Shown: piece after piece, positions 11,401-43,191 of the stretch | Position numbering within the stretch: position 1 is the stretch's first letter | Layout: every line of letters starts with the position of its first letter | NCBI GenBank assembly: GCA_012813795.1 | Contig: GCA_012813795.1_4087.1 | Direction: 5' to 3' (one strand) | DNA length: 64,000 bases | Source of the DNA: a phage | Notes under the pieces: generated by a model | Told to the model about the DNA's origin: nothing | Databases searched by the model: none | Seen by the model: only the letters and a program-made list of their open reading frames with translations | Position numbers and translations under genes: made by a program

Positions 11401-14400
11401 CCTAGTGGGTTGTGGGATGTTGGTAATGAGAAAGGTGATAGCTCAACTGGAACTATCTTATTTGGTGCACGTAAAGGCCAATATGACAAGTATAAACGTT
11501 TTGGTACACAACCATTCAAGATCACCAAAACAGGCAAGCAGACTGCTTCTGGTGTTGATATTTGCGTTATTGAGTACATTGCACCTGAAGTATTAGGTCT
11601 TGTTTATGGTAGTTTGAATCATCGTGCTGAACCTTGGACCTATGGTGACATGGGTGACATGGAATTCACATACATGAACACCTCAATGTTCGCATATGAT
11701 GAATTAATGTTGTTATTCAAAGCTAAACCTGCACAATTCACCAACTATTTCTGGAATACTCGAAATAATACATTAAAAACTGTATCTGGTAACGAACCAC
11801 AGTTTTTATATGGTGATACTCGTTTACGTTTGAACTTTAACAGTGATACAATAGTACATGGTGAGAATAGCACTCGTGTTATTGGTTATCAAATGATTGT
11901 TAGTAACTATTTGATGTATCAAAACAAAAACATCACTACTAAGTACGGTGAAGTTGTTCGTTCTTCTCATATTAATGTTGGTCATAAACTAGGTGGATTC
12001 ACTAAAGCTGACCAATTAACATTTACGTCAGAAGCAACTGGTCTAATTTCACAAGAAAACCAATCTATCGGGTTAGTTCGTTCTAATAATATTAGAAATG
12101 AGCAAATGAGTGCAATTAAAATTACTTGGACTGGTAGTGCTTACCAAATTGATGGTTATGATTTAGTTTCTGCAACATTCAATTATAAATTGCCTGTTAA
12201 AAACGGTCATAAAGTAACTTTGAAAGTTGATAATCGTAATGTTGTTCATTATAATGAGTGGAAAAATGATGCATCAATCCCTTACGGAACTTTGATGAAT
12301 ACATTCCAAGAAGTTTACACATTTATTTGTGGTTATGGTGAGTATCTCAAACAACATGGTTGGATTTTTGAAGAAGTTGATGAATCTGGTATCCAACAGG
12401 ACTGGAATACAATTGCAAAAGACTTTTTAATCTGGAGTCAACAACAATTGAGTACTGGTGAATTCATTTCATGTACTCCATCTGCAATTAAAGCCAAATT
12501 TGGTACAGATTTTGGTTCAGTACAGTCAATTACACAAAATAGTGGTGGTGTTTGGTCACTATTAGATGATTCAAACCAAGGTATCCGTCAATTTGAGATT
12601 GAAACATCTCGTATTGGTAATATATTCACGGTGAGAACTACTGAAGAATCAAATAAACGCATGGCACTTATTCGTTTAAGTATCAGTTCATATGAACATG
12701 CTGTTATTTTTGATGATCAGACTATTTTCGGTGACTATATCTACGAACCAACCTATGGTGCAGTTCAAGAATTGATTAAATTGTATGGATATATCACTGG
12801 TTCATGGTCTGGTCGCTTACAAGCTCCTGGATTTATCATCCTAGAAGCTGGAACATTACCATCATTTGAAACATTGGTATCAAATTTCCAACAGTATTAT
12901 GATAATGAAACTCCAGTTAGTGATGTTCAATTGAATGAACTATCAAATCACTTAATTGGTTATCAGTCTCGCGATTACTTACAACGTATGATCACCAACG
13001 AGCCTGGTAGAATTGATTTCTATAAAGGTTTCATCCACGATAAAGGTACTAACCAAGTACTAGAAAAAGTACTACGTGTATCTAAATCATATAATACTGA
13101 TGAGTATAAAGCATTACAAGAATGGGCATTCCGAGTTGGTTCTTATGGTAACATTGATGGGGTTAAAAATCTTCAATTTAAACTAATTAATAATGAGTTT
13201 AAACAACAACCACAAATGATTTCGTTTGACCGCTATGCTGATAAGGTAGAGTCAGAGAATGAGATCGTATATTATGGTGAAATTGGTGAAGATTCACGCT
13301 GGATTAGTCGTCCTAAAGGTAAATTCTCATTACCTATGCGTAGTGGAAGAAGTGAGAACATCCAATTACCTAATATTGGCCCAGTAACCTTAGATGAAAT
13401 TGATTATACCACATTGAATTATGAAACGGCTAATCAAGATCGCATTAGTTACACGAATAACTTTGGCAAAATACCAACATCTGTTTGGATGTTCCAAGAT
13501 ATTAATAACGAATGGAATATATATGATTTGGTAGACACTGGTATTACAATGGTTTCCATTACACCAATAGAGAATAGCGACCCATATGCTGAGCAATATT
13601 GTAAAGTACTATTGTCTGATGACATCCCACTAATGGATGGTGATTATTACTATTTCGTTGATGAAACAAACTTTATGCCTGACGCACTACGTGAAGAAGG
13701 TCAATATTACACTTCTGGACTAAATCCAAAAGTTATGGTTGTGCCATTTGACACTTCTATCACTATTGACTTCTCAACTGTAGAATCAGCACCACGTTTG
13801 TATCGTTATGTTAGTAGATTCAGCACTCAACAAGAACGTGATGATTATATTGCTAAAAAATACAGTTACAGTGCACCTGAAAGTACTTTGTTTGACCGTC
13901 CTACTACGTATGATGAAAGAACAAACATCACTGCATTGTATTTGAATGTGTTTGACCCAATCAATGGTGTTATTCCTGGTGTAGCAATGCAAGATGTTGA
14001 TTTCATCTCCCCTGTTGATCCAGCACAATATAGCAGTAATGGTGAACTATTACAAGCATGGGGTGCTGAAAAGGTAGGTAAGGTATGGTGGAACACTAGT
14101 ACTGCATTCTATCTGGATTATACCCGTCCAATCTTTGATGAGGATGGAAACGTTGATGTAAAAGCAACTAATGAATATAAGCGTTATAATTGGGGTAAAT
14201 TATTACCACACAGTGTTATTGATGTTCTAGAATGGGTTAGTTCACCAGTAGAACCATACAACTGGGAAAAATATTGTGCAGAACAAGCCAATAAAAATAA
14301 AAACAACACCATGTATCTCCCAAGTGGGGTTGCGATGGATGATAACTATAGTTCATCTATGGAATATGATCCAATCACCGATACATATGTAGTTCGTTAT

Positions 14401-17400
14401 TATTTCTGGGTTCGTAATACAATTTATGTTCCACCAATGACTACTCGTAGTAAGTCTTGTACTGATATTGCACGTATTATTCAAGATCCAACACAATTGA
14501 ATGTTCCTTGGTTTGCACCTATTAACGAAAATAGTTTCATTCTAAGTAATATGCAATTTGAAGTTAATGATGATACAAGCATTTTGACAATTTCATATAG
14601 AAATGACAATATTGAAGTCCTGAAGCATGACCAATATCAACTTTGTAAAGAAGGTGATAGTTATGACTTTAACCCAGATATTTGGAATTCTCTATGGAAC
14701 TCACTAATTGGTCAAGAAACTACTTCAACTGGTGTTGTAAATGAAATAGTTTATCCTAAAGTTGAAACTGGTTTGGGTTCTAATAAAACTTGGTTCCAGA
14801 ATGTTATTGAAGCTCGTCGTGCGTTTGTTGAGAGTGCTAATAACTTTTACCGTTCACATAACATCACAACTAACAGTGTTGTTATGAATGATGTCTTTAA
14901 TGTTAAAACATTAAAAATGAACCCGAATGATATTACATTCCGTGTTCTATCATTTAACAATGAATTGGTAATTGCACCAGAAGACAACCGCTTCAAAGAG
15001 AATGATGCAGTATTTGTAAGTTCCATTGGAACATTACCAGCACCATTATCTTCAAGTTCTGTATATTTTGTTCACATTGATCCAAATGGATACATTCAAT
15101 TGATGAACAGTCCAAGCACAGTTGGTAGTACTGTCACAATCACTCTAGAAAATAGAGGCGAAGGTCAACACAAGATGATTAAACAAGCTGACTTCATTGA
15201 ATCACTTGGTACATCGTTGGATATGACACAGTACTGGAATCTAGCTGATTGGTACGATACTGGATACGATAGTAACACTGAATATACACAAGAAGTTAGT
15301 TTAGATGACGCAAACACTAAAAATTACCAAATTGGTGATATTATCCGTGTAACTGATAGTGATGGCGTTTGGACATTATACATCAAGACTGCATCTCGCA
15401 ATAATGTATACTGGAGAGCTATTGGACGTGAGAATAGTACTGTTGAATTGAATTCAATGTTATATTCTAGTTACAATGTTTATAATGATGATGGTTCTTT
15501 GAATTCTCATGAGGTTAACGTTCGTAATGCGTTAGCGTTGTTGAAAAATTCATTCGATTTATATCAAAGTAATATTGTATTTGATATGGTTAAGTACGTG
15601 CACACTGAACAAAGTGTTGTTGATTGGGTATTCAAAACCTCCTATATCTATATCGTAGGTTTGGAGCAATCACTAGTACAGAACTACTCAAATGACAACT
15701 TGATTAATCAAATTGTTGAGTACTTCGAGGAAGTTAAACCATACAGAACCAAAATCCGTTCTCAAATCGAACAGAAAACTTCTGATGATGATTTGATTAA
15801 TGGTATTAGTAATGACCTTGACCCAGATGGCTATATTTTAGTTGATGGTGTGTGGGTTAAGACTGAAAAAGACATTTGGGATTTAGAATATGCACAATTC
15901 AATGATGTAACTCAACGTTGGGAAAAGATTGGTTCACTACCAAGTGACTTTATCACACCTAATAGACGATTCCAAGAAATAGACGTTATTATGCATTATG
16001 ATAATATTCAATGTGAACAGTATGATAGTAATTATACAATTGATGAGTTGAAATCAACCAATAGTAAGTATCAATCCAACGAGGCTGATGTAGGTAATAA
16101 TTATGAATTACAGAGATATGTTTATACATTCCCTGAATATGATAATAATACCTTAATTTCACAAATTGGTATTGAAATGACTACCAAATATTCAGATTTG
16201 GATATTAGTAATGGTGTTATTAAAGGAATTGATGCATGGTATAAAGCACATTCAACTGATATCGCATCAACTGACCAATTTACTACTGATTTGGAGCAGG
16301 TAACTGCTGATACAAACAATAGTAATATTTTAGAAGATGTTAAAAAATATATTCAATATAATACATTAGCAACTCGTGTGAAAATGTTTAATAATATATC
16401 TGATGATATGGTTTCTAATGAGATTGGTTGTCCGTTTAAGGGTACAAACTATAATGATAATCCTAATACTCGCCTCCCATTCGGGTTTAGTGCAAGTAGT
16501 GATTATAACTATGGTTATTTTGAGATTAGTATTGAACTATATGAAAAATATGTCGATATGATCAAGAAAAATCACCCAGAGTTTACAAACGAAGACCAAA
16601 TTCGTAACATTCTTGAAATAGAATATGGTGTTTATTGCTACAAGTATGATACCACATTAAATGACCGTTATTATTCTGATACCGTTCATGTTTTATCTGC
16701 TATGCGACAAACATTTAATAAGAATATTCTAGATCATTATTATGTTGCTAGAGAAATCTTAAGTAATCGTTCAGTTGAGAAGTATGCTTTTGTTATGATG
16801 CCAAGAAAGTATGTGTATGTTGTGAATGCGGCGGGTGAATATCTACCGATTCCTGAAAGTTACAGCATATCTGATTTCATGGAAGACTTGTTCATAACAA
16901 CCGGAGAATCAGTTGTATTGGCTGAAATTGATTTAAATGATTTACCACAAGACCAGAATAATCCTATGTATTCTGCATACATTGAAGTACTGGAAAGTAT
17001 TAATACCGCGAAATATTTCAATGATATGAACGCATTCGATAACTTGGCATTGGAATCACAAACCAAGTCCATTAAATGGGAAGTTAAAGATAGTGAGATT
17101 GATCCTTATATCATCGACATTTCTGAACTAAACCCATCAGGAAGAACAATGGCACAATTGCGTTTCACTGTTGATGGTTATGGTTTCGATGAAGTTGCTC
17201 AAGAGCAATTAAAAGACACGAGTAGATTCCAAATTGAGGGTATGATCGTACAGAACCCTTACAATATGTCAGAAGCAATTGTAAGTATTCCATCATATGA
17301 TATTGTCATCGAGAATATGGGTAAAGATGTGTTTAAAGATTCAGAAAAATACTTCTTCCCAATTTCAGAAATTAAAACAATTACTGAAATCAAGGTTCAT

Positions 17401-18438
17401 GATGAAGGATTGAAAAATGGTGATAAGGTTGTGATTTTCACACCAGATGGTGAAGATTATGTACGATTCCAAGATGGTGAATGGGTAACTATACTAAGTG
17501 CTAGTAAAATCCAAACCTCCAAAAAACCAAAACTGTACACTGTGCGTGTATTGGGTAACGGAAACGTTGAGTTGGTTGATGGTAACGGTGTTGCATTGAT
17601 GTTTGATAGTGTAACTAAGCGTGAAAGTAATGAGCGTTTTTATACATTATCAATGAACTTAGTTAGAATCCGCACTTTCCAAGACCCTGAGTTTGATGAC
17701 AATGGCCTTAAACTATATGAAAATAATCGTCATTATAGTATACATGCATTGAACTATGAAGTATTCTATGACGAAACATTATATGGTGGTAAATTCAATG
17801 ATGGTATCACATCTGATGAGATTGATTTGTGGTTAGTTTCCAATGAGATTTTTGAAGTTGATGGTATTACAATTGATAATGGTTATAATCAACCAATCAC
17901 TGGTAAAGGTGTTCTAGGTGAACTAGTACGAGCTAAAATGACTGATGGTATTGAAATCACTGTATTTGAATACGATGTTGATGTTATTCAACCAGTACTA
18001 AGTTATGATCGCGTGTGGCAGTATGCACAACCAGTGGTCAATAACACGTTCATCAAAGAGGTAGGATGTAATGTTATTAACATTACAACTGTTGAAGATG
18101 AGGCAATCACTTATGTTGCTAAACCTCGTTCAATAAGCCCATATATCATTACTGATTCAGTACTGTCAGGTGCTGCGGCACAGAATGATGATATTATTGT
18201 GGTTGGATATGAGAAGGTTCAGGTAAGAAATACTGATCGTCTATTACGTGGTGTCATGTATAGTGCGGAGCATAATTTCACAAAAGGAACTTCTTATAGC
18301 TTCAATGGATTGAACTTAGGAAGCATTGATAAGTTTACTCAATATCAAAACTTCTATCCACCAATTCCATTAGAGACATTCAGAAATGGATTGTCAATTA
18401 CTGGAACCGATATCGAAAAACTTTTGAATATTCAATAA
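8461..18438 (+). CDS. giant virion-associated structural protein (about 3300 aa), function unassigned
   Basis: Single uninterrupted ORF; ORF track begins at ATG 8431 but ATG 8461 has a GGAG RBS and lies downstream of an ATAAATA late-promoter-like box (8418-8424). Last gene of the baseplate operon, followed by a strong terminator. Confidence 0.6.
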   Translation: MTNNFKFLPTKTAEAVQQKLFIKRLPEWMQGLEDIQKVSDDVIQQWFNPADNEIVDGYIGDMGSPAASAKIFLDESTVERQLYQLSTAYVSRNDDTSIRSLQFYDDLVGYMEHYGTLTSNESRLFSGKFYSWTPPINPNKMTNYSSYLWDSKNSFGITSPDFIVMERGADNGNTWSLQNFWYTIGQTLEDGTVLTADMTQDTRFIRAQAPIIEYNKNIELINYGTNFRGIVDLFSDTVKPEDIVQKDVNDGIRIDGIIPQDGMRILFTSIGNVGENNRIYKVFIKKMQDGSRTYGLALDPDEESEERPSGEPHNGDVILVRDGNVYKNTSMYWNGVDWVRAQTKSGINVFPQFQLYDRDGFKLNDTTMYPSSNFVGSSLFGFKINYNYGTDKVYGYNIELGNYNYYMYENFLQSVRYTYDHLGVETEISGLYYYNVVGKDNELHLKTDWVRSKEDSKQFVKQTPQIEHTDMYRVFNTVFEMENFKTPLEGMYAYVIEVDRTYQYYKEERQTYMDWHVISGEGIQSERFNRTFELAQKIIDGKSTEIIEIQVDGVDVTDYTRHVYNNKVQSITLGEDVTLKDESVIQIRTYSSTEVPNKELGAYEIPINLQNNPYNDNILYINQSNFTLHFKDIIQKNITSGSVDDFNDYEERLSKGLVDNSVGTKIIQNEASMLPLMAHSANEDIDLFESVLFMQSEYFRFVNKFNTQMIRLYNENPANFLANNASNIVDEILTIINMGHDNTFPFYYDNVASTSGFIRAFVPPTPQFLGILKAHVPEKATFLNAGSKQSCYNISHTGAITKAYRVINGVDKMDDVIYELENRIFNSIDVIFKDEDYQPKLDASDLFPTPYFRDTEYNDEEKKNLLLRGYINFIATNGISNSSHDYDPNNWMTWNYTGTYYIVNGQQTQIPARGSWRAIYTDQFGTYRPATHPWEMFGFSQRPVWWNQEYEPTAVQVGERDSDVVYVYEALVLNEQGNMVPSGLWDVGNEKGDSSTGTILFGARKGQYDKYKRFGTQPFKITKTGKQTASGVDICVIEYIAPEVLGLVYGSLNHRAEPWTYGDMGDMEFTYMNTSMFAYDELMLLFKAKPAQFTNYFWNTRNNTLKTVSGNEPQFLYGDTRLRLNFNSDTIVHGENSTRVIGYQMIVSNYLMYQNKNITTKYGEVVRSSHINVGHKLGGFTKADQLTFTSEATGLISQENQSIGLVRSNNIRNEQMSAIKITWTGSAYQIDGYDLVSATFNYKLPVKNGHKVTLKVDNRNVVHYNEWKNDASIPYGTLMNTFQEVYTFICGYGEYLKQHGWIFEEVDESGIQQDWNTIAKDFLIWSQQQLSTGEFISCTPSAIKAKFGTDFGSVQSITQNSGGVWSLLDDSNQGIRQFEIETSRIGNIFTVRTTEESNKRMALIRLSISSYEHAVIFDDQTIFGDYIYEPTYGAVQELIKLYGYITGSWSGRLQAPGFIILEAGTLPSFETLVSNFQQYYDNETPVSDVQLNELSNHLIGYQSRDYLQRMITNEPGRIDFYKGFIHDKGTNQVLEKVLRVSKSYNTDEYKALQEWAFRVGSYGNIDGVKNLQFKLINNEFKQQPQMISFDRYADKVESENEIVYYGEIGEDSRWISRPKGKFSLPMRSGRSENIQLPNIGPVTLDEIDYTTLNYETANQDRISYTNNFGKIPTSVWMFQDINNEWNIYDLVDTGITMVSITPIENSDPYAEQYCKVLLSDDIPLMDGDYYYFVDETNFMPDALREEGQYYTSGLNPKVMVVPFDTSITIDFSTVESAPRLYRYVSRFSTQQERDDYIAKKYSYSAPESTLFDRPTTYDERTNITALYLNVFDPINGVIPGVAMQDVDFISPVDPAQYSSNGELLQAWGAEKVGKVWWNTSTAFYLDYTRPIFDEDGNVDVKATNEYKRYNWGKLLPHSVIDVLEWVSSPVEPYNWEKYCAEQANKNKNNTMYLPSGVAMDDNYSSSMEYDPITDTYVVRYYFWVRNTIYVPPMTTRSKSCTDIARIIQDPTQLNVPWFAPINENSFILSNMQFEVNDDTSILTISYRNDNIEVLKHDQYQLCKEGDSYDFNPDIWNSLWNSLIGQETTSTGVVNEIVYPKVETGLGSNKTWFQNVIEARRAFVESANNFYRSHNITTNSVVMNDVFNVKTLKMNPNDITFRVLSFNNELVIAPEDNRFKENDAVFVSSIGTLPAPLSSSSVYFVHIDPNGYIQLMNSPSTVGSTVTITLENRGEGQHKMIKQADFIESLGTSLDMTQYWNLADWYDTGYDSNTEYTQEVSLDDANTKNYQIGDIIRVTDSDGVWTLYIKTASRNNVYWRAIGRENSTVELNSMLYSSYNVYNDDGSLNSHEVNVRNALALLKNSFDLYQSNIVFDMVKYVHTEQSVVDWVFKTSYIYIVGLEQSLVQNYSNDNLINQIVEYFEEVKPYRTKIRSQIEQKTSDDDLINGISNDLDPDGYILVDGVWVKTEKDIWDLEYAQFNDVTQRWEKIGSLPSDFITPNRRFQEIDVIMHYDNIQCEQYDSNYTIDELKSTNSKYQSNEADVGNNYELQRYVYTFPEYDNNTLISQIGIEMTTKYSDLDISNGVIKGIDAWYKAHSTDIASTDQFTTDLEQVTADTNNSNILEDVKKYIQYNTLATRVKMFNNISDDMVSNEIGCPFKGTNYNDNPNTRLPFGFSASSDYNYGYFEISIELYEKYVDMIKKNHPEFTNEDQIRNILEIEYGVYCYKYDTTLNDRYYSDTVHVLSAMRQTFNKNILDHYYVAREILSNRSVEKYAFVMMPRKYVYVVNAAGEYLPIPESYSISDFMEDLFITTGESVVLAEIDLNDLPQDQNNPMYSAYIEVLESINTAKYFNDMNAFDNLALESQTKSIKWEVKDSEIDPYIIDISELNPSGRTMAQLRFTVDGYGFDEVAQEQLKDTSRFQIEGMIVQNPYNMSEAIVSIPSYDIVIENMGKDVFKDSEKYFFPISEIKTITEIKVHDEGLKNGDKVVIFTPDGEDYVRFQDGEWVTILSASKIQTSKKPKLYTVRVLGNGNVELVDGNGVALMFDSVTKRESNERFYTLSMNLVRIRTFQDPEFDDNGLKLYENNRHYSIHALNYEVFYDETLYGGKFNDGITSDEIDLWLVSNEIFEVDGITIDNGYNQPITGKGVLGELVRAKMTDGIEITVFEYDVDVIQPVLSYDRVWQYAQPVVNNTFIKEVGCNVINITTVEDEAITYVAKPRSISPYIITDSVLSGAAAQNDDIIVVGYEKVQVRNTDRLLRGVMYSAEHNFTKGTSYSFNGLNLGSIDKFTQYQNFYPPIPLETFRNGLSITGTDIEKLLNIQ

Positions 18439-35560: not shown

Positions 35561-37534
35561 ATGTCAATTAATAGAATTCGTGGTGATGGTGGTGTTATCA
35601 TAGATAGCAAAGCTTTCCTTGAACTACCAAAAGCCCCAACGATAGTAACAGCAGACCAAATGCGTACAGGTATGATTCGATACAACACTGAATGGAAAGC
35701 ATTCGAAGGTGTTCTCGAATTTGAAGATGGTTCAGTTGCGTATAGACGTTTTGCAAACCTAGATGCAAATGGCAAACTATTGTCATCTCAATTACCAGAT
35801 TCTGTAACAAGTGGATTGCAATTCCTTGGTACATATGATGCTATTGAAGATGATACAAATCCACCAGCATCCTATACAGCATTACCTGCACCATCTGTTT
35901 CCTTAAATGGTGATTATTATGTTGTTCGTGGTGTTATGGATGCAGCACAAGAGCACTATACACAAAATACCCCCACAACAAGCCCAGTTAAATTCACACC
36001 AGTGAATCCAACTGGTCAAGGTGATTGGATTGAAATTCTATATTATATAGATCAAAACCCAATTGAACCAACTAAAAAATTGGTAAGTTATGCGTTTGCT
36101 CGTATTATAACAACTGCAATCCCAGCAAGTGGTCATGAAGGTCTTGTGAATTTGGCACAAGATGAATCGATCACTACACCTTTTGATACATCTTTGACAC
36201 CACAAGGCCAAACTGCATTAGCTGATAGTGACTGGATTATCATCACTGAAACTAAAAACATTCGCCTACGTCAGTCAAGAGCTAGTATTTCAGCTTCTTC
36301 AGTACTGTATGATAACACTATCATGGTTGGTAGTCAACGTCAATTTAGTACCAACGCAGGTACAGTTCAAACTACCTTAGATAACCTCGTATTAGAGGGC
36401 TTACGCCGCACTGGTGACTCTATGGTTGATGATGGACTGATAGGCAAAGGAAGACTAGGGGTAACTTATGGTAGTGCTACAGAGCCAGCTATAGGCTTTA
36501 ATAACGCACCATATGACCCAAACACTAACCCAGGAAACGATCCAAGTAAATGGACTGACACAAAAACTGGTATTTTCCACCCAGCAGATGCCGCTATTGG
36601 TTTAACCACAGCAGGTGTTGAACGTGTGCGAGTAACAAATGGTTCTTTGAATTTATATCAAAGCACTACTACCCCCGCATCTGCACCAACATTACGTTTT
36701 GCTAATGCTTCCAACACAAACGTAGGCATTAGTGGTGAAAATAATATTTTGTCATTTAGTTCTATGAACAAAGTACAAGTTGAAATACAAAATGGTGTAA
36801 CCAAATTACATGGAAACTTAGAAGTTGATGGTATTAGTACTTTAACGGGTGATGTTACGGCGGTTTCAAATGTTACAACTAATGGTAATTTGAACGTTAA
36901 AGGGAATACTATATTAGGAACTGGTAGTTCAACTAATTTATTAACAGTTAACTCGGTGTCCACGTTTAATAAAGAAACTAATTTTATCAATGCTAATAAT
37001 AATTTTAATGGAATCCTGCTAACCAGTGGTAATTCATTTAGATTTGCACACGTTACCAACGATATTAATATGAAACTACTAAACGGTGAATTGCGTATGG
37101 ATGTTCGTGGTTATGCGGATTTATCTGTATATGACAGTAATGTGTTGCGTACACGTATTAACCGTTATGGTATCCAATTACCAGTACTGACAACTGTTAA
37201 TGACAGTGAAGGTGTTGATGGTATGATTGCGTACTCTGAACAGAATAGAACATCAATGCAGAAAGTTGATGGTAAATGGGTTCCGATTGGTTCTGGTACA
37301 GTAAGAACTACATTATTCACTGTTGATAATTGGGTACTTGATGGTGCATATTACAGACTGACAGTTCCAGAAACTGATATAGTTAATGCTGAAATTCAAG
37401 AACAAGTAGCAACTGATGAATTTGTTAAAGTTGATGTTGATAGTGTTAAGTTTACATTAACTGGTGTAGTTTATAGTATTCCTTCTTCTCCTGATGTTCG
37501 TTTTGCAGGAAGAACATTAGTAACCGTGAAATAA
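35561..37534 (+). CDS. tail fiber protein
   Basis: 657 aa; N-terminal conserved-looking segment (GMIRYNTEWKAFEGV), fibrous middle and distinct C-terminus; RBS GAGGA; both ATAAATA and TGATATAAT boxes upstream. Confidence 0.55.
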   Translation: MSINRIRGDGGVIIDSKAFLELPKAPTIVTADQMRTGMIRYNTEWKAFEGVLEFEDGSVAYRRFANLDANGKLLSSQLPDSVTSGLQFLGTYDAIEDDTNPPASYTALPAPSVSLNGDYYVVRGVMDAAQEHYTQNTPTTSPVKFTPVNPTGQGDWIEILYYIDQNPIEPTKKLVSYAFARIITTAIPASGHEGLVNLAQDESITTPFDTSLTPQGQTALADSDWIIITETKNIRLRQSRASISASSVLYDNTIMVGSQRQFSTNAGTVQTTLDNLVLEGLRRTGDSMVDDGLIGKGRLGVTYGSATEPAIGFNNAPYDPNTNPGNDPSKWTDTKTGIFHPADAAIGLTTAGVERVRVTNGSLNLYQSTTTPASAPTLRFANASNTNVGISGENNILSFSSMNKVQVEIQNGVTKLHGNLEVDGISTLTGDVTAVSNVTTNGNLNVKGNTILGTGSSTNLLTVNSVSTFNKETNFINANNNFNGILLTSGNSFRFAHVTNDINMKLLNGELRMDVRGYADLSVYDSNVLRTRINRYGIQLPVLTTVNDSEGVDGMIAYSEQNRTSMQKVDGKWVPIGSGTVRTTLFTVDNWVLDGAYYRLTVPETDIVNAEIQEQVATDEFVKVDVDSVKFTLTGVVYSIPSSPDVRFAGRTLVTVK

Positions 37535-37562
37535 AAAAAGGGAGACAAATGTCTCCCTTTTC
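37533..37562. terminator. bidirectional rho-independent terminator between fiber gene (+) and thyA (-)
   Basis: AAAAAAA GGGAGACA-AA-TGTCTCCC TTTTCT. Confidence 0.75.
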
Positions 37563-37564
37563 TA

Positions 37565-38494
37565 TTATACAGCCATTGGTGCTTTGATTGTTGGCATTGG
37601 ATTGTAATTCAAAAGTTTGAAAGAATCCATTGTAAAATCTTCAATATCGGTAATTGAAGGATCTAGCCATAGTTCTGGTAATTCACGTGGTTCACGTTGA
37701 AGTTGTTCTTTTACTTGTTCAACGTGGTTTTTGTAAATGTGACAATCACCACCATTCCAAATAAACTCACCAACCTCAAGTCCAGTGATTTGTGCAATCA
37801 TATGGGTTAGTAGTGAATAGCTACTAATATTAAATGGTACTCCCAAAAATAGATCCGCACTGCGTTGATGTAGAATACAGCTTAGCTTGCCCTGTACGAC
37901 ACAAAACTGTACAAAGCTATGGCAGGGTGGTAAAGTCATATCATCAAGCTCACCGACGTTCCAGGCACTTAGAATGTGACGGCGACCATATGGGTCGGCT
38001 TTAATACCCTCAATAACTTGTTTTAGCTGGTCAGTAACTCGACGCATAACAACACCATGAGCACCAGTATAATCAATAACTTTATAACCTTTATCTTTCA
38101 ATTCTTGAATTTCTTCAGTACTGGTACTGAATTTATAATCTTCCCATTCACGCCATTGCTTACCATAAACTGGTCCAAGCTCACCATTAGAATATCCAAG
38201 AGCTACACCTTGATTAAGGTAGTTATCTGTCCAAATTGTTTTCTTTTCCCAATCACGAGTGCCGTGTAGAATTTCACACAAGCGACGCTCATCATGAGAA
38301 CCTTCAATGAACCATAATAATTCTGAAGTCATTGCTTTCCAAGCTAAACGTTTGGTTGTCACTGCTGGAAAGCCTTGTTGAAGGTCAAAACGCATTTGTT
38401 GACCGATTAGTTTGATAGTACCTACACCTGTACGATCAGTACTTTCTACGCCTTCATCCAGAATTTTTTGATATAGTTCTTGTAGTTGTTTCAT
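37565..38494 (-). CDS. thyA: thymidylate synthase (ThyA family, with a small-domain insert)
   Basis: 309 aa; DRTGVGT, LAWKAMTSELLWF, ILSAWNVGELD, catalytic PCH and the dUMP-specifying Asn in GVPFNISSY; alignable along its length with bacterial ThyA apart from an insert of about 35 aa. Confidence 0.9.
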   Translation of the reverse strand: MKQLQELYQKILDEGVESTDRTGVGTIKLIGQQMRFDLQQGFPAVTTKRLAWKAMTSELLWFIEGSHDERRLCEILHGTRDWEKKTIWTDNYLNQGVALGYSNGELGPVYGKQWREWEDYKFSTSTEEIQELKDKGYKVIDYTGAHGVVMRRVTDQLKQVIEGIKADPYGRRHILSAWNVGELDDMTLPPCHSFVQFCVVQGKLSCILHQRSADLFLGVPFNISSYSLLTHMIAQITGLEVGEFIWNGGDCHIYKNHVEQVKEQLQREPRELPELWLDPSITDIEDFTMDSFKLLNYNPMPTIKAPMAV

Positions 38495-38497
38495 TGT

Positions 38498-39088
38498 TCA
38501 TCCTTGAAAAAATGTTGTAAAGTGCATCATATGCTTTTCTTGTGCATTTCTTGAGCCTATTCCCGTCCAATTTCCATGTGGCTTAGGTACTGATGCGGTT
38601 TCTTCGAATTCTTTTAGTACTGGATTATATGAATATACTTTTCTGTCATTAATGTCATAGCAGTATATTTCAGGATTATCAGTACTGTCAATATACATTT
38701 GTACAGCCCATGCAGTACCACCACTGACTTGAGTAGGTGAAACCAGTGATGCCATACAATAAACTCTCTCTGTGTTTAAAATTTGATATCTATTACGTGC
38801 TAATAGATTATAAACATATGAGCCAGGTTTAGGAACACGGCGTTGTAATGAATAACATGCCATGTTTAGTTGGTGTAGAATAGAACTATCATTCAAAATA
38901 TAAGATGGGATTTCTAATATAGTACTTTCATCAACACTATGATTATGATTTTTGAATGAAAAGTTAATTACATTAAAACCATTTTCCATAGCATATAAAG
39001 TAAAAAAGCGGTCTGCACCTTGTGCACCACCGCTATAAAATGTATTAGTTAATCCCTTGATTGCTTCATCAAGTTCATTTATCGTCAT
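38498..39088 (-). CDS. hypothetical protein with GGAQGAD Rossmann-like motif (possible SLOG/DprA-like nucleotide-binding fold)
   Basis: 196 aa; N-terminal FYSGGAQGADRF motif is reminiscent of SLOG/LOG/DprA-type Rossmann proteins; lies directly upstream of thyA in the same operon. Confidence 0.4.
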   Translation of the reverse strand: MTINELDEAIKGLTNTFYSGGAQGADRFFTLYAMENGFNVINFSFKNHNHSVDESTILEIPSYILNDSSILHQLNMACYSLQRRVPKPGSYVYNLLARNRYQILNTERVYCMASLVSPTQVSGGTAWAVQMYIDSTDNPEIYCYDINDRKVYSYNPVLKEFEETASVPKPHGNWTGIGSRNAQEKHMMHFTTFFQG

Positions 39089-39380
39089 TCTTATGTTCCA
39101 AAGCAGACATTAATTCTTGTAAATTCTCATCCTCTAATGCGAAACTGGTTTCAAGGGCTGCCAAAATGACAGCACCAGCTTTGATTAAGGACTCTCTAAA
39201 TTCATCGAATGATACATGCTTATCGGGGCGAGTTGCCCCTTCGAAGAGATAATAGGCACATAAGGAAGCCCAATCATTCTTTGTTTTAAGTGTATCAGAT
39301 AATGTATTTGGATTATCTATTTGTTTCTGTCTTTCTTCAGTTATTTTGAGAATGATATCTTCTCTAGTAACTTTAGCCAT
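39075..39380 (-). CDS. hypothetical small protein
   Basis: ORF track start 39401; ATG at 39380 overlaps the upstream stop (AATGGCTAA), suggesting translational coupling; 101 aa from that start. Confidence 0.4.
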   Translation of the reverse strand: MAKVTREDIILKITEERQKQIDNPNTLSDTLKTKNDWASLCAYYLFEGATRPDKHVSFDEFRESLIKAGAVILAALETSFALEDENLQELMSALEHKNDDK

Positions 39381-40029
39381 TCTTACGCTCTGCAAAAACA
39401 AGTTTTAGTTTCTCAATTGCTTTGGTTTGAGAAATACCTTCTGGGAGTTCAATGTAAAAAACTTTCTTATCAGAATCAGTTTTCACATTCGTTTCGTTGG
39501 GACGAAGAGAAGGTTCTAGGTTATAAGCACGCTCATAATGCTCTTTAGATAATTGATCATATTTTGCAGCAGTTTTTAGTAGTTCATCAACAATAGTTTC
39601 ATCTTCGACTTTTGTATCTTGAACTTGTGGATTGAATGGGTTGTAATCTTTTACTTTACCATCTTCATGTTTTTTACTTTCATTACCGTCGATTGCATCA
39701 TTCAGTACATCAAGTGAAATCTTGTTGTTACCGCCAGTGTGCATGTCAATATCACAAGTACGGACCTTACGTAGATATTGTAGATTGTGAAGAACATCTA
39801 GCATTTTACGACCATCGAGATAACCTACTTGATGCATAACTTCCCAAAGTTCAACAGAAGCTTGTCCACGACCCATAACTAAATCGGTTACAGCAGATAC
39901 ATATGCTTCTGGAAGTGAGTCACGATACACCACTAGACAATGATCATGATCATCTGGAAGTGAACGCCAAACAACGAAAACACGAGAACCAGTATTACGA
40001 ATTACACCTGTGTGACGAATAGCAGCCAT
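39373..40029 (-). CDS. hypothetical protein
   Basis: 218 aa ORF with ATG/stop overlap with the upstream gene; no motif recognised. Confidence 0.5.
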   Translation of the reverse strand: MAAIRHTGVIRNTGSRVFVVWRSLPDDHDHCLVVYRDSLPEAYVSAVTDLVMGRGQASVELWEVMHQVGYLDGRKMLDVLHNLQYLRKVRTCDIDMHTGGNNKISLDVLNDAIDGNESKKHEDGKVKDYNPFNPQVQDTKVEDETIVDELLKTAAKYDQLSKEHYERAYNLEPSLRPNETNVKTDSDKKVFYIELPEGISQTKAIEKLKLVFAERKNG

Positions 40030-40271
40030 TATTCTTCCCCTTCTGTACCAGCGGTATCTTGTGCTTGAGCAGCAGCTTCTTCACGTTCTTTGATATCAGC
40101 AAGTGCTTTATCAGCAAATTTAACGAACTTAGAAACAATTGGTGCTACGTTCACTAGTTCATCAACTTGAAACGCATTACGTGCAACCGCAGATTCCATA
40201 ATACGAGCAGCGTTGATTAGGTCAACTAGGTCTAGGATTACTTCGTCTTGTGCATTGTTTTCAGTACTCAT
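40029..40271 (-). CDS. hypothetical small acidic protein
   Basis: 80 aa; first gene after the promoter at 40305-40332. Confidence 0.45.
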   Translation of the reverse strand: MSTENNAQDEVILDLVDLINAARIMESAVARNAFQVDELVNVAPIVSKFVKFADKALADIKEREEAAAQAQDTAGTEGEE

Positions 40272-40304
40272 ATATTACTCTCCATGTATGTTATTACAAT
40301 TTCC

Positions 40305-40332
40305 ATTATATCATAGTTAATTGGGTTGTCCC
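40305..40332 (-). promoter_or_regulatory. sigma70-like promoter (GGGACA-N16-TGATATAAT)
   Basis: Extended -10 TGATATAAT with GGGACA at -35 on the minus strand, just downstream of the vWA terminator and upstream of the 80-aa gene. Confidence 0.5.
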
Positions 40333-40337
40333 AATTA

Positions 40338-40368
40338 TAAAATAAAAGAGAACGACGAATCGTTCTCT
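40338..40368 (-). terminator. rho-independent terminator after the vWA gene
   Basis: Perfect 8-bp stem AGAGAACG / CGTTCTCT with a T-rich tail on the minus strand. Confidence 0.65.
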
Positions 40369-40378: not shown

Positions 40379-41854
40379 TTACGAACGTTGGCGTTTTTTG
40401 TCCGCTTCATATTCGTAGTGAACAGTTTCACCAAATGGTGCTACTTTGTTCGGGTTACTGTGGATTACAAACAGTGTTTTACAGTAGTTAGGATCACCCC
40501 ATGACTGCCACGGTTCACCATCGGTAAACATGATAAGCTGCTTAGGCTTATAATTGTCATGCTTCATGTGAACCCAAACTGCTTCAAAGTCAGTACCGCC
40601 ACCACCTTTAACTGGATATTCAAGAATCTTACGTTCTTCACCAGTTTTATAATCCATCACAGTATAAACTTCAGTATCAAATGTCATGATACGAATTTTA
40701 AACTGCTTGAATTGTTTAGTGATGCCTAGTACTTCACTGATGAAATCGCGAAGCATATCTTCACTGATAGAGCCTGATGCATCGAGTGCAATTGCAATAT
40801 CAATATCGTCATCTGGTTTCATGCCTGGGAAGATTGGATTCCCATAGAATGAACCGTTAGAACCAAAACCAGCACCCCACGAACGGCGGCTTGGGCTTTG
40901 ATAGGTCGCATCGGACTTCAACCAACTACGAAGAGTACGTTGAAGTTTAGAACGCCAGTCAATTTTTGGTTCTTTAAAGTTATTGATCATACGAGCGATT
41001 TCAGCAGGAGTACCACCTGCACGAGCAGCATTCATCATTGCTGTTTTGAAATCGTCCATGTATTCACGTTTTTGTGCTTCAGATGCACCACCTTCACCAC
41101 CTTCACCATCTTGTGGTACATCGTGTTGGTCAATGGTAGTGCCTTTGCCTTTACCATTTTGGATATCACCAAAAGTACCGCGTGATTTACCTTCACCTTC
41201 ACCACTACCAGATTGTGGCTGACCTTCACCTTCATCTTGATCTTGTTTATCTTCTTCTTCTAGAAGAATATAAATCTCTTCGGCGGTCATACCATCATAC
41301 TTCTTATCATACAACCATTGACTTTGAATCTTACCAATTTTTTCACGAACAATAATTTGGTTGATTGCGTAGTCTGCTGCACGGTTGTAGCGTTGTGGGT
41401 CACGCATACCACGACGAAGGAAGTGATCGTATGCACAGTGAAGAATTTCATGACAGATAACTGCAATCAGGTTTTCATCAGTCAAACCTTCGGTCATTTC
41501 TTTCAATTGTTCTTCAGTTACTTCAGGATGCTTCTCACGAATTGCTTCTTCGTATGCTTCTTTCTTGCTTGGGTCTTGAATACCCATGATAAATTCTACG
41601 TTATAGAATAAATGTTTACCATCTACTGCTAAGGTACGACACCATGTATTGTTTGCAACTGGACGCAGACGTGAAGCCAGTACACCAAAGAATGGAGCAG
41701 TTAACATCAGAGAAGTACGAGCAAGAATCAAACGGTCTTGGCATTCTTTCTGGAGTTGTGGTGTTACGTCGCTAAATTTCTTATCGGACATGATATTTCC
41801 TCGTTTAGTTAAGATAAAAGAAGGATACCATGTGGCATCCTTCTTGTCAAACAT
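40379..41854 (-). CDS. von Willebrand factor A (vWA) domain protein with N-terminal HExxH metallopeptidase-like domain
   Basis: 491 aa; HEILH zincin-like motif (VICHEILHCAYDH) in the N-terminal half; MIDAS-type DxSxS motif (ALDASGSIS) in the C-terminal half; Gly/Glu/Gln-rich linker; RBS AGGAAA. Confidence 0.75.
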   Translation of the reverse strand: MFDKKDATWYPSFILTKRGNIMSDKKFSDVTPQLQKECQDRLILARTSLMLTAPFFGVLASRLRPVANNTWCRTLAVDGKHLFYNVEFIMGIQDPSKKEAYEEAIREKHPEVTEEQLKEMTEGLTDENLIAVICHEILHCAYDHFLRRGMRDPQRYNRAADYAINQIIVREKIGKIQSQWLYDKKYDGMTAEEIYILLEEEDKQDQDEGEGQPQSGSGEGEGKSRGTFGDIQNGKGKGTTIDQHDVPQDGEGGEGGASEAQKREYMDDFKTAMMNAARAGGTPAEIARMINNFKEPKIDWRSKLQRTLRSWLKSDATYQSPSRRSWGAGFGSNGSFYGNPIFPGMKPDDDIDIAIALDASGSISEDMLRDFISEVLGITKQFKQFKIRIMTFDTEVYTVMDYKTGEERKILEYPVKGGGGTDFEAVWVHMKHDNYKPKQLIMFTDGEPWQSWGDPNYCKTLFVIHSNPNKVAPFGETVHYEYEADKKRQRS

Positions 41855-41865
41855 TCTTTTAGTTA

Positions 41866-43191
41866 TTAACCAAGAGAACGTGCTTTGCGTACTAGGTCAG
41901 AGTACTTCATAACGAAGTCTTTGAACGCTGGAACATCTTTGTACGCAATCGCTACCTTATGTTGAGTGATGGTACGAATTGCTAGTACTGCCAGTTCTGC
42001 CTGAGTTTCGGAGAAGTTACGGTCCAGGAAGGTGATGAAGTTGTTGCACAGCTTGCCCCACTCTTCAACTGGAAGACGTTGTTCTTGCTTCTCATTGTAC
42101 AGGTCGATAATTTTATAAACCAGATTCAGAGAGATGAAGTAGTTCGCAGAAATATCCAGCGTTGCATCAATCTCTTTAATCTCACCCTGTAGGATGGACA
42201 TAGTATCTGGTAGTTTAGATACGTTTTCTACGTATTCGATATATTCAGTTGCTACACCTTCACCAACACGACCAGCGATTAGAGCACGGAACACTTCTTT
42301 ATCAATGTTGTTGCCTTTCTTCAGGTCTTCGTAGCGTGCTACTGCTTCCCATGAACGTGGAGAAGTACCACCACTGTGAGAAGGATCTTGTGGGCTAAGG
42401 GTGTTGAAGTACTTAGCACCAGTGTTGTTGATGAACGCAACAGTACCTGGGTTCAAACGCTTAGCAATCGCGTAATCGTCAATCCAATCTTGATGGTAAG
42501 GAACCATTTCGATGTGGGTCATACGGTCACGTAGTGGCGTTGCCAGAGAGAACGTTACGCCGCCATCAGTTTCACGGTTACCTGCTGCGAGAATCAGTGC
42601 AGTCTTAGGTAGCTTCATCTCACCAACACAACGGTCGAGGATTAGCTGATAAGACGCTGCCTGTACAATCGGCATAGCAGAGTTAATTTCGTCAAACAGG
42701 ATAACACCTTTCCAATCTGGAGACAGTTTCAGTACTTTAGGTGCTGCCCATACAACTGCTGTTTCAGCAATGTAATCTTTAGCTGTTTCCAGTTCAGATT
42801 CAATCAGTTGTTTGCCATCCATATCCAGGAACACTTTTTCAGGGACTGGGATACCACGTAGGTCACTTGGTTCAATCTGTGACAAACGGAAGTCGATGAA
42901 GTTAGTGTCTTGGTCAATCAGTTTTGCTTCAAACGCTGCCAGTTCGCGGCGAAGTGCATCAGCATTTTCAGCATCAACTTCAATTTGTTGTTTCATGAAC
43001 TCGATTTTAGCCAAGTTATCCTTACGAAGAGGATAGTTCTCGTCAGCGTATTGACGTGCAATCGCAGACTTACCGATACCAGGGCTACCCCAAATCATCA
43101 GACTGTCCTGAATTTTATCTGCCAGAGCCATAGCCATTTTTGCTTTCTTAGGAGTCAGTTTTACGTTCAGGATATCTTGTTGTTCGCTCAT
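41866..43191 (-). CDS. AAA+ ATPase, MoxR/CobS-like
   Basis: 441 aa; Walker A GSPGIGKS, Walker B ILFDEINSA, sensor region LILAAGNRETDG; immediately upstream of the vWA gene (the classical MoxR-vWA pairing). Confidence 0.8.
   Translation of the reverse strand: MSEQQDILNVKLTPKKAKMAMALADKIQDSLMIWGSPGIGKSAIARQYADENYPLRKDNLAKIEFMKQQIEVDAENADALRRELAAFEAKLIDQDTNFIDFRLSQIEPSDLRGIPVPEKVFLDMDGKQLIESELETAKDYIAETAVVWAAPKVLKLSPDWKGVILFDEINSAMPIVQAASYQLILDRCVGEMKLPKTALILAAGNRETDGGVTFSLATPLRDRMTHIEMVPYHQDWIDDYAIAKRLNPGTVAFINNTGAKYFNTLSPQDPSHSGGTSPRSWEAVARYEDLKKGNNIDKEVFRALIAGRVGEGVATEYIEYVENVSKLPDTMSILQGEIKEIDATLDISANYFISLNLVYKIIDLYNEKQEQRLPVEEWGKLCNNFITFLDRNFSETQAELAVLAIRTITQHKVAIAYKDVPAFKDFVMKYSDLVRKARSLG

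What the first reader, a model, noticed from the sequence alone, without database searches (positions are those of the whole stretch)
37565..40332. Operon linking unknown proteins, a GGAQGAD Rossmann-like protein and an insert-bearing thymidylate synthase
A promoter at 40305-40332 precedes five tightly coupled genes ending in thyA, with start/stop overlaps throughout. The ThyA homolog retains the PCH cysteine and the dUMP-specifying Asn but has an extra segment of about 35 aa. The upstream 196-aa protein carries a GGAQGAD motif suggestive of a nucleotide-binding Rossmann fold. The unknown partners could be nucleotide-modifying enzymes.
Basis: partly seen in the sequence, partly recalled or inferred. 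Interest (0 to 1): 0.45.

Follow-up and report, generated by a model that had tools for sequence, protein, structure and literature searches.

The report
Jumbo-phage thymidylate synthase operon with unknown partners
This is a real five-gene operon of a jumbo E. coli phage that ends in an ordinary thymidylate synthase; three of its unknown genes form a cassette that sits just upstream of a thymidylate synthase gene (ThyA or the unrelated ThyX) in many giant phages, which hints at undescribed helpers of thymidine supply, not at DNA base modification.

Summary
The window is an Asteriusvirus (Rak2-like) jumbo phage, 98% identical to Escherichia phage A4. Five minus-strand genes (80, 218, 101, 196 and 309 aa) lie between two intrinsic terminators, behind a sigma-70-type promoter that is conserved in relatives.

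- **ThyA:** a canonical T4-type thymidylate synthase with every catalytic residue present. Its 34-aa insert lies at the known variable small-domain site.
- **218-aa protein:** an SH3/KOW-like barrel plus helices, not an enzyme fold.
- **80- and 101-aa proteins:** small and acidic, with no catalytic signature.

New result: the 80-218-101 cassette recurs in 36 of 37 non-redundant viral loci. In 34 of them a thymidylate synthase (ThyA in 15, ThyX in 19) follows within 2.7 kb. The SLOG gene fills this slot only in Rak2-like phages; relatives have DHFR there.

Nothing supports base hypermodification. The functions of the partners remain inferred.

The parts
40347..40368 (-). Intrinsic terminator that closes the upstream VWA/ATPase unit
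   Evidence: Nine-pair stem followed by a T-run. It folds at -12.8 kcal/mol, z = -4.5. A hairpin at this position is kept in four relatives although the stem sequence differs between them.
40305..40334 (-). Sigma-70-type promoter: -35 TTGGGA, 18-nt spacer, TG-extended -10 TATAAT
   Evidence: Ten of 12 consensus matches. TG.TATAAT is invariant, and the -35 region is similar, in 121Q, RaK2, GAP32 and BF. That it fires early from host RNA polymerase is inferred; there are no expression data.
40278..40283 (-). Ribosome-binding site GGAGAG, 6 nt before the ATG of the 80-aa gene
   Evidence: Read from the sequence. The TACATGGAG block is conserved in relatives.
40029..40271 (-). p80: 80-aa acidic protein (pI 4.2), first gene of the conserved cassette
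   Evidence: Matches phrog_13789 at 8.5e-25. It has a conserved core of about 45 aa (DLxN..IID.A..RGAF.G.EL..V) and a variable low-complexity tail, acidic here and Lys/Ala-rich in some relatives. Present in 36 of 37 non-redundant cassette loci. No PDB or Pfam relative.
39373..40029 (-). p218: 218-aa protein with an SH3/KOW-like beta-barrel N-domain carrying a helical insert (residues 1-123), a linker, a long helix (146-171) and a C-terminal helix (201-217)
39075..39380 (-). p101: 101-aa acidic protein, predicted helical from sequence only, third cassette gene
   Evidence: Matches the N-terminal part of phrog_2831 at 6e-15. A profile search finds 103 relatives, mostly 85-110 aa, with consensus ERxRQ..D...NDW...Y...LIKAAAVILAALE. 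No Pfam or PDB relative. One relative is fused to a nucleoside 2-deoxyribosyltransferase-like domain. The gene is missing from the 121Q/PBECO4 clade.
38498..39088 (-). 196-aa circularly permuted SLOG-fold protein (GGAQGAD at nt 39031-39011)
37565..38494 (-). ThyA/Td: canonical T4-type thymidylate synthase, 309 aa
   Evidence: PF00303 at 4e-103. NF002497 equivalog scores 346 against a cut-off of 327, and TIGR03284 scores 334 against 108. E. coli TS is the best PDB match at 4e-82. R21, E58, W88, Y110, R171/R172, C191, H192, Q210, R211, S212, D214, N222, H252, Y254 and the C-terminal KAPMAV are all conserved.
38039..38140 (-). Lineage-specific 34-aa insert in the ThyA small domain (residues 119-152)
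   Evidence: Absent from E. coli and T4 TS. Present but variable in sequence in all Rak2-like phages. Other giant phages carry 0 to about 70 residues at the same site. From memory, this is where L. casei and eukaryotic TS carry their inserts.
37534..37563 (-). Intrinsic terminator after thyA, shared with the convergent structural gene
   Evidence: Thirteen-pair hairpin followed by U7, -18.3 kcal/mol, z = -6.3. The sequence is shown.
40379..43191 (-). Upstream neighbours, a separate transcription unit: a VWA/DUF2201 metallopeptidase-like protein (40379-41854) and a MoxR/N4 gp24-like AAA+ ATPase (41866-43191)
   Evidence: PF13203 at 2e-35, PF09967 at 2e-20, and weak AAA matches. This pair lies upstream of the cassette in 11-13 of 37 loci.
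54668..55294 (-). The phage's dNMP kinase, which is the usual partner of this SLOG family in other phages. Here it is followed directly by the tail sheath gene (51911-54574), with no SLOG gene between them.
   Evidence: PF21448 at 3.3e-10, 40.4 bits against a 27.1-bit cut-off. Tail sheath PF17482 at 9e-14. It matches the profile built from the neighbours of distant SLOG genes at 2.7e-74.

Best explanation
This is a composite operon, probably expressed early, of a Rak2-like jumbo phage. It is read from a host-type promoter and bounded by terminators. It joins three things.

1. A conserved cassette, p80-p218-p101, of small acidic proteins without enzyme-like folds. Across diverse giant myoviruses this cassette sits just upstream of a thymidylate synthase gene, whether that gene is ThyA or the non-homologous ThyX. 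I infer that these proteins are accessory or adaptor factors of thymidylate supply, for example tethering or regulating the synthase within the nucleotide-precursor and replication machinery. They are not catalysts.

2. A circularly permuted SLOG-fold protein. It occupies the slot that DHFR holds in relatives, and in most other phages its gene is translationally coupled to a dNMP kinase gene. I infer that it binds, and perhaps cleaves in a LOG-like manner, a nucleoside 5'-monophosphate-type ligand in the same precursor pathway.

3. A bona fide thymidylate synthase that methylates dUMP to dTMP. Its insert is a lineage-specific decoration of the variable small domain.

Shown here: the gene structure, the regulatory signals, the folds, the ThyA residues and the gene neighbourhoods. 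Inferred: early timing, every biochemical role of the four partner proteins, and any physical association between them.
For: - **Operon anatomy and signals:**
- **ThyA is canonical:**
- **SLOG fold and motifs:**
- **SLOG and dNMP kinase:** in 23 of 37 non-redundant distant loci the gene immediately upstream, usually overlapping by 1-4 nt, is a dNMP kinase (PF21448). This holds in several different flanking contexts.
- **Relocation in the Rak2-like lineage:** here the dNMP kinase is followed directly by the tail sheath gene, and the SLOG gene sits beside thyA instead.
- **The SLOG protein is not basic:** pI 5.8 here, family median 7.0.
- **Cassette conservation:** the trio is present in 36 of 37 non-redundant loci with GC content from 0.32 to 0.54. 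A thymidylate synthase lies within 2.7 kb downstream in 34 of 37 (ThyA 15, ThyX 19), and two of the three exceptions are truncated contigs.
- **DHFR slot:** DHFR precedes ThyA in the non-Rak2 ThyA loci.
- **p218 fold:** SH3/KOW-like, not enzymatic.
- **p101 fusion:** a p101-type domain is fused to a nucleoside 2-deoxyribosyltransferase-like domain in one relative.
Against: - All functional roles rest on gene neighbourhood and fold.
- The cassette-bearing phages may share ancestry, so conserved order could be inherited synteny with in-place ThyA/ThyX replacement rather than functional coupling.
- PA5oct carries HNH-p80-p218-p101 with no thymidylate synthase within 5 kb, and L087 has none within 5 kb.
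- p101 has been lost in the 121Q clade.
- GAP32-type phages have an extra ORF of 117 aa (about 300 nt) between the SLOG gene and thyA.
- None of about 60 distant SLOG loci has thyA, p218 or p101 within 6 kb.
- The SLOG family lacks the LOG catalytic Glu: the motif is GGT(A/G)WA(V/T)Q.
- The same domain is embedded in an N4-like virion RNA polymerase and in giant proteins. It also lies next to WYL regulators and a topoisomerase in Flavobacteriaceae. These contexts point to other roles.
- p101 and p80 were not modelled, and no expression data were available.
Confidence: 0.5

Rival explanations
1. The cassette's link to thymidylate synthase is inherited gene order only. On this reading p80, p218 and p101 act in something unrelated, such as transcription or replication control or host takeover. 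The KOW/SH3-like barrel and the DNA-mimic-like or histone-tail-like p80 tails would fit that. The operon is then simply a string of co-timed early genes.
For: - The upstream context is also conserved: an HNH gene in 26 of 37 loci, preceded by a NinI-like phosphatase in about 21 loci or by ATPase-VWA in 11-13. This suggests block synteny.
- PA5oct and L087 have the cassette without a nearby thymidylate synthase.
- The best p218 fold matches are Spt5 KOW domains from RNA polymerase complexes.
- Some relatives have Lys/Ala-rich p80 tails.
Against: - The linkage survives replacement of ThyA by the non-homologous ThyX, changes of the upstream flank, and local inversion of the p105-ThyX pair.
- It holds over p218 identities of only 25-35% and GC content from 0.32 to 0.54.
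Confidence: 0.3
2. The 196-aa protein is a DprA-like ssDNA-binding recombination mediator, as PHROG-based annotation names it.
For: - phrog_768 is named 'DprA-like'.
- The gene is next to gp46/47 in Cr30 and next to UvsY in one locus.
- In Flavobacteriaceae it lies near a topoisomerase, which from memory recalls the bacterial dprA-topA arrangement.
- Embedding in an N4-like virion RNA polymerase fits, because (from memory) N4 virion RNA polymerase uses single-stranded hairpin promoters.
- Iyer et al. 2021 suggest an SSB-like role for jumbo-phage DprA/Smf proteins (PMC7824862).
Against: - Only 4 of 50 family members touch PF02481, and only weakly (best E-value 0.006).
- DprA's flanking domains are absent.
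- The protein is acidic to neutral.
- The dominant conserved neighbour is a dNMP kinase, not a recombination gene.
Confidence: 0.15
3. The SLOG protein is a counter-defence module. It would bind or destroy a nucleotide-derived immune signal (ADP-ribose or cADPR type, as the ThsA SLOG domain binds) or act on NAD-derived metabolites. It would be needed at the very start of infection.
For: - The same domain, with all invariant motifs, is embedded in the injected virion RNA polymerase of phage Pylas (E 9e-53), in a crAss-like giant protein, and in a protein of more than 2926 aa that also has an AlkB-like match.
- The operon has a host-type promoter, which suggests early expression.
- Cellular homologs are paired with WYL/WCX regulators.
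- The ThsA SLOG domain and TRPM2 appear among the fold neighbours.
- Iyer et al. discuss jumbo-phage SLOG domains in NAD/ADPr conflicts.
Against: - Tight coupling to a dNMP kinase in 23 of 37 loci, and to Td here, is not what known anti-defence sponges show.
- No ligand data exist.
Confidence: 0.2
4. One reading: the operon is a DNA base-modification pathway, in which a TS-like enzyme makes a modified pyrimidine and the partners elaborate it.
For: Only the clustering of unknown genes with a TS homolog and the presence of an insert in that homolog.
Against: - ThyA meets equivalog-level thresholds and keeps every residue needed for reductive methylation, including the C-terminus.
- Asn222, not Asp, excludes the dCMP hydroxymethylase type.
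- The insert is one of many length variants at a variable loop.
- The cassette also accompanies ThyX.
- p218 has no enzyme fold, and no kinase, transferase or glycosylase family matches were found in the operon.
- The RaK2 report gives methylation as the only modification proposed.
Confidence: 0.04

Closest known systems
T4 Td and bacterial ThyA (thymidylate synthase, EC 2.1.1.45, PF00303)
   Same: The whole fold and all catalytic and substrate-binding residues. The segment of about 16 extra residues at positions 67-103 matches T4 Td (1tis) specifically.
   Different: There is an additional 34-aa insert at residues 119-152 with no counterpart in any solved TS sequence. There is no intron. DHFR is not adjacent, unlike frd-td in T4 and in the non-Rak2 relatives.
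cpYpsA / YAcAr (DUF2493) families of the SLOG superfamily, represented here by PDB 3imk
   Different: Only 18% identity to 3imk. Pfam YAcAr is matched below its curated cut-off and by only 16 of 50 family members. The family has its own invariant R98-N99-x-x-Q102 and W127. It is phage-borne with a dNMP-kinase or Td context. No member of these families has a defined biochemical activity that I know of.
LOG / PpnN nucleotide 5'-monophosphate phosphoribohydrolases (SLOG superfamily)
   Different: The catalytic Glu of PGGxGTxxE is absent (GGTAWAVQ here). No Pfam LOG match was found.
DprA/Smf recombination mediator
   Different: There are no SAM or winged-helix domains, the protein is not basic, PF02481 is not matched at threshold, and the conserved neighbour is a dNMP kinase.
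T4 frd-td gene pair and the T4 dNTP-synthesising enzyme complex (from my own knowledge)
   Same: Relatives carry DHFR-ThyA directly downstream of the cassette. The idea that phage nucleotide enzymes work in an assembled complex is the model for the adaptor hypothesis.
   Different: PHROGs lists the three cassette families as 'unknown function', and no N4 homolog was found by profile search. T4 itself was not searched directly. Membership of such a complex is untested.

Membership tests
Thymidylate synthase ThyA (PF00303 / TIGR03284 / NF002497) | Sequence match above the curated family cut-offs | tested here: met
   PF00303 344.5 bits (cut-off 24.3), TIGR03284 333.8 (108.35), NF002497 equivalog 346.3 (327).
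Thymidylate synthase ThyA | Catalytic Cys in P-C-H, and the Arg residues that bind the dUMP phosphate (E. coli R21, R126', R127', R166) | tested here: met
   C191 in PPCH; R21, R171, R172 and R211.
Thymidylate synthase ThyA | Asn that specifies uracil (E. coli N177), and the conserved C-terminus that closes the site | tested here: met
   N222 in PFNI. The C-terminal KAPMAV aligns with KAPVAI.
Thymidylate synthase ThyA | Reductive methylation of dUMP to dTMP | not testable with these tools
   Needs an enzyme assay or complementation of an E. coli thyA mutant.
dCMP hydroxymethylase (T4 gp42 type) | Asp in place of the uracil-specifying Asn | tested here: not met
   Asn222 is retained.
SLOG superfamily | Rossmann-like fold with a Gly-rich phosphate loop after strand 1 and a second Gly-rich loop before helix 4 | tested here: met
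cpYpsA / YAcAr (PF10686) SLOG families | Circular permutation of the core, and a match to the family model at its cut-off | tested here: inconclusive
LOG phosphoribohydrolases | PGGxGTxxE motif with the catalytic Glu | tested here: not met
   The family motif is (V/I)xGGT(A/G)WA(V/T)Q, with no conserved Glu.
DprA/Smf | PF02481 match at threshold, plus ssDNA binding and RecA loading | tested here: not met
Thymidine hypermodification gene clusters (dUMP hydroxymethylase plus 5-hmdU DNA kinase and transferases; features listed from my own knowledge) | A TS-like hydroxymethylase accompanied by kinase or transferase-type modification enzymes | tested here: not met
   No such family matched any of the five operon proteins in Pfam, PHROGs or NCBIfam. 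p218 has an SH3-like fold. The rest of the genome was not screened.

The most novel reading that the evidence does not exclude
p80-p218-p101 (plus p105 in most non-Rak2 phages) would be a previously unrecognised set of thymidylate-synthase-associated factors that work with both ThyA and ThyX in giant phages, for example a scaffold or regulator that couples dTMP synthesis to the replication machinery. In addition, the permuted SLOG family would be a new (d)NMP-acting partner of dNMP kinase and Td.
Probability: 0.2. Interest if true: 0.65.

Novelty: new variant of a known kind. Interest (0 to 1): 0.42.

Why it matters
Thymidylate synthesis is among the best-studied steps of phage nucleotide metabolism. 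Even so, a four-to-five-gene neighbourhood around it in many jumbo phages consists of proteins with no assigned function. If the cassette or the SLOG protein does act on thymidylate or dNMP supply, that would add new components to the phage dNTP-precursor machinery. It would also correct the widespread 'DprA-like recombination mediator' label on this SLOG family. If they do not, the finding is an ordinary early operon ending in an ordinary thymidylate synthase. On either outcome, nothing here supports the suggestion of modified DNA bases.

Tried and rejected
- **PDB sequence and profile searches** for the SLOG protein, p218, p101, p80 and p105 gave nothing significant.
- **Pfam and NCBIfam** gave no family for p80, p218 or p101, even when 48 diverse p101 relatives were scanned.
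- **MazG-like idea for p101:** I suspected from memory that it is an all-alpha NTP pyrophosphohydrolase. No tool result supports this and I could not model the protein, so I dropped it.
- **N4:** its ATPase-VWA pair resembles the upstream genes, but profile searches found no p80, p218 or p101 homolog there.
- **First attempt to fetch p101-related loci** failed because no conserved stretch was found. A narrower alignment worked.
- **Whether PA5oct encodes any thymidylate synthase:** I stopped after one 50-kb genome chunk because of cost, and the paper's supplements were not held.
- **Literature searches** for SLOG with dNMP kinase and for cpYpsA/YAcAr found nothing relevant beyond Iyer et al. 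2021.
Full report
**Source of the window.** The 4-kb region is 98.3% identical to Escherichia phage A4 (Asteriusvirus, 355 kb) and about 80% identical to 121Q, PBECO4 and other Rak2-like jumbo phages. In A4 the five genes are annotated as four hypothetical proteins plus thymidylate synthase.

**Observation check.**
- Positions: p80 at 40271-40029, p218 at 40029-39373, p101 at 39380-39075, the 196-aa protein at 39088-38498, and ThyA at 38494-37565.
- Junctions: overlaps of 1, 8 and 14 nt, then a 3-nt spacer.
- Promoter: in the 107-nt gap upstream there is a terminator (40368-40347), then TTGGGA-N18-TATAAT with a TG extended -10 (40334-40305), then a GGAGAG ribosome-binding site.
- Chance level: promoter-like matches are not rarer than chance in this region (23 found, 19.4 expected).
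- Conservation: an alignment with 121Q, RaK2, GAP32 and BF shows an invariant TG.TATAAT, a similar -35 region, a conserved TACATGGAG block, and a terminator hairpin whose stem differs in sequence between the phages.
- Folding: both flanking terminators fold far better than shuffled sequence, z = -4.5 and -6.3.

The operon and its signals are therefore real. That it is transcribed early by host RNA polymerase is an inference.

**ThyA.** The protein scores 344 bits on PF00303 and passes NCBI's equivalog-level models. E. coli TS is its best solved relative, at 4e-82.
- Every residue I know to matter for catalysis is present: R21, E58, W88, Y110, R171/R172, C191, H192, Q210, R211, S212, D214, N222, H252, Y254 and the C-terminal KAPMAV.
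- Residues 58-117, which carry about 16 extra residues, align best with T4 Td (1tis). This is a phage-type Td.
- The second insert (residues 119-152) has no counterpart in any solved TS sequence. From memory, it lies in the small domain, where L. casei and eukaryotic enzymes carry inserts.
- Among relatives this site holds 0 to about 70 residues. Within Rak2-like phages the insert is present but poorly conserved in sequence.

I conclude that this is a canonical thymidylate synthase with a lineage-specific loop decoration. It is not a hydroxymethylase.

**The 196-aa protein: fold.**
- PHROGs calls it 'DprA-like' (4e-25). Pfam gives only a sub-threshold YAcAr SLOG match.
- One hundred and nine homologs were found, none with a Pfam domain.
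- Invariant positions: S19 G20 G21 G24 D26, R98 N99 Q102, G124 T125 W127 A128, and G176 I177 G178 R180.
- The AlphaFold2 model is excellent, pLDDT 97.9.
- The G-I-G-S-R strand sits at the C-terminus, which fits a circular permutation.
- The LOG catalytic Glu is absent.
- Only 16 of 50 family members touch YAcAr weakly, and only 4 of 50 touch DprA.

It is a distinct SLOG family closest to cpYpsA/YAcAr.

**The 196-aa protein: context.** IMG/VR holds 327 relatives.
- All close relatives (above 50% identity) are Rak2-like phages with the same block: ATPase-VWA-p80-p218-(p101)-SLOG-thyA.
- None of about 60 distant loci has thyA, p218 or p101 within 6 kb.
- Instead, in 23 of 37 non-redundant distant loci the gene immediately upstream, usually overlapping by 1-4 nt, is a dNMP kinase (PF21448). 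This holds in several different flanking contexts.
- In this window the dNMP kinase (54668-55294) is followed directly by the tail sheath gene. The SLOG gene sits 16 kb away, beside thyA.
- The family has thus been placed beside a dNMP-handling enzyme in two separate arrangements.
- Against a purely metabolic reading, the complete domain with all invariant motifs is embedded in the virion RNA polymerase of the N4-like phage Pylas (residues 984-1156, E 9e-53). It is also embedded in a crAss-like giant protein and in an ORF of more than 2926 aa that has a weak AlkB-like match.
- Cellular homologs are paired with a WYL/WCX regulator and a topoisomerase in Flavobacteriaceae, and follow cmoA-cmoB in Desulfofustis.
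- The protein is acidic to neutral.

I rank the hypotheses as follows: a (d)NMP-type ligand-binding or -processing role first, a counter-defence role second, and a DprA-like ssDNA role third. None is demonstrated.

**The three small partners.**
- **p218** (phrog_15894) has 81 homologs, all uncharacterised.
  - Its model (pLDDT 82.5; N-domain above 90) shows a small beta-barrel with a helical insert, a linker, a long helix and a C-terminal helix.
- **p101** has only close relatives in the word-indexed search.
  - A profile search of 1.84 billion representatives finds 103 relatives. Most are free-standing proteins of 85-110 aa.
  - One relative is fused to a nucleoside 2-deoxyribosyltransferase-like domain.
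  - There are no Pfam or PDB relatives.
- **p80** has a conserved core of about 45 residues and a variable low-complexity tail.

None of the three shows an enzyme-like fold or conserved catalytic-type residues.

**The main new result.** Sixty-one viral loci were fetched with a p101 profile.
- All of them carry a p218 homolog immediately upstream.
- After removing redundancy (37 loci, GC 0.32-0.54, contigs up to 578 kb), the p80-p218-p101 trio is present in 36. The exception is cut by a contig end.
- An HNH endonuclease gene directly precedes the trio in 26 loci. Upstream of that lies either a NinI-like phosphatase (about 21 loci) or the ATPase-VWA pair (11-13 loci).
- Downstream, 15 loci have ThyA. 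It is preceded by DHFR in the non-Rak2 phages and by the SLOG gene in the five Rak2-like ones.
- Nineteen loci have the non-homologous ThyX, first seen in the Atu_ph07 annotation.
- Of the three loci without a thymidylate synthase, two end within 600 nt of p101.
- A fourth small family, p105, accompanies the cassette in non-Rak2 phages, often directly upstream of ThyX. It is absent from this window.
- Exceptions: PA5oct has HNH-p80-p218-p101 with no thymidylate synthase within 5 kb, and the 121Q clade has lost p101.
- N4 has the ATPase-VWA pair but no detectable cassette.

**Interpretation.** The operon is a composite of the conserved cassette, a lineage-specific SLOG gene in the slot where relatives have DHFR, and Td. 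The persistence of a thymidylate synthase next to the cassette, through replacement of ThyA by ThyX and through changes of the upstream flank, is the best argument for a functional link. Shared ancestry of these phages is the main alternative. Because the cassette proteins lack enzyme-like folds, I favour adaptor or regulatory roles in thymidylate supply. I hold this with low confidence.

Nothing supports a base-modification pathway. The RaK2 paper reports digestion by methylation-tolerant restriction enzymes and proposes only methylation (PMC3622015). The Sharanji paper lists only methyltransferases (PMC11895373).

**Relation to the literature.** Iyer et al. 2021 note DprA/Smf-type and YAcAr-type SLOG proteins in jumbo phages. 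They suggest SSB-like or NAD/ADPr-related roles (PMC7824862). I found no paper linking this SLOG family to dNMP kinase, and none describing the cassette-thymidylate synthase neighbourhood. The searchable library is incomplete.

**Limits.**
- There are no expression, biochemical or interaction data.
- p101 and p80 were not modelled.
- ORFs in the fetched loci were called mechanically.
- The non-redundancy filter is crude.
- The phylogenetic independence of the cassette-bearing loci was not quantified.

Noticed in passing
L198 (Klebsiella phage Pylas, NC_049444) locus 3501-3977; L197 (crAss-like cr130_1); L074 3721-12501: The complete SLOG domain of this family, with all invariant motifs, is embedded in an N4-like virion RNA polymerase (residues 984-1156). 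It is also embedded in a crAss-like giant protein of about 5800 aa, and in an ORF of more than 2926 aa that has a weak AlkB-like 2OG-Fe(II) oxygenase match.
   Followed up: partly
Window 54668-55294 (-) and 51911-54574 (-); loci L024-L086: In most distant phages the SLOG gene is translationally coupled to a dNMP kinase gene and is often followed by the tail sheath gene. In this window the kinase and sheath genes are adjacent without it, which suggests the SLOG gene moved to the thyA locus in the Rak2-like lineage.
   Followed up: yes
L088-L147, e.g. L093 5273-5590 and L134 5008-5292: A fourth conserved small protein (p105, about 95-115 aa) accompanies the cassette in non-Rak2 phages, often directly upstream of ThyX. 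It inverts together with ThyX in three loci. It is absent from this window, and no PDB relative was found.
   Followed up: partly
Window 43480-43453 and 43386-43359 (-): Two perfect 12-of-12 sigma-70 promoters (TTGACA-N16-TATAAT with TG) lie upstream of the ATPase-VWA unit.
   Followed up: no
L014 (GAP32) 6595-6948, and equivalent positions in BF, CBB and Eneladusvirus loci: An extra, highly acidic 117-aa ORF with GYD-type repeats lies between the SLOG gene and thyA in GAP32. Comparable gaps of about 300 nt occur in the other loci. The SLOG-thyA junction is therefore not tight in all relatives.
   Followed up: partly
L150-L170 (Flavobacterium, Paenimyroides, Myroides) and L173-L196 (Desulfofustis and relatives): Cellular homologs of the SLOG family show conserved pairs: SLOG, then a WYL/WCX regulator, then a topoisomerase in Flavobacteriaceae; and cmoA-cmoB-like methyltransferases followed by SLOG in Desulfobulbales.
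   Followed up: partly
P0313 (266 aa, from the representative search): A single protein fuses a nucleoside 2-deoxyribosyltransferase-like domain (phrog_355, 1e-14) to a p101-type domain. Other relatives fuse the p101 domain to zinc ribbons or to tail-chaperone-like regions.
   Followed up: partly
L002/L007 (121Q) and L010: The p101 gene is missing from the 121Q/PBECO4 clade and from one metagenomic relative, while p80, p218, SLOG and thyA remain. This suggests p101 is dispensable there.
   Followed up: partly
Window 8431-18438 (+): A single ORF of 3335 aa lies in the structural-gene part of the window. It was not examined.
   Followed up: no
L199 (Atu_ph07) 188000-201000: Around the cassette, Atu_ph07 also encodes nicotinate phosphoribosyltransferase, a Nudix hydrolase and a NinI-like phosphatase. 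An NAD synthetase gene lies near its SLOG gene (L004). This puts NAD-metabolism genes near both loci.
   Followed up: no
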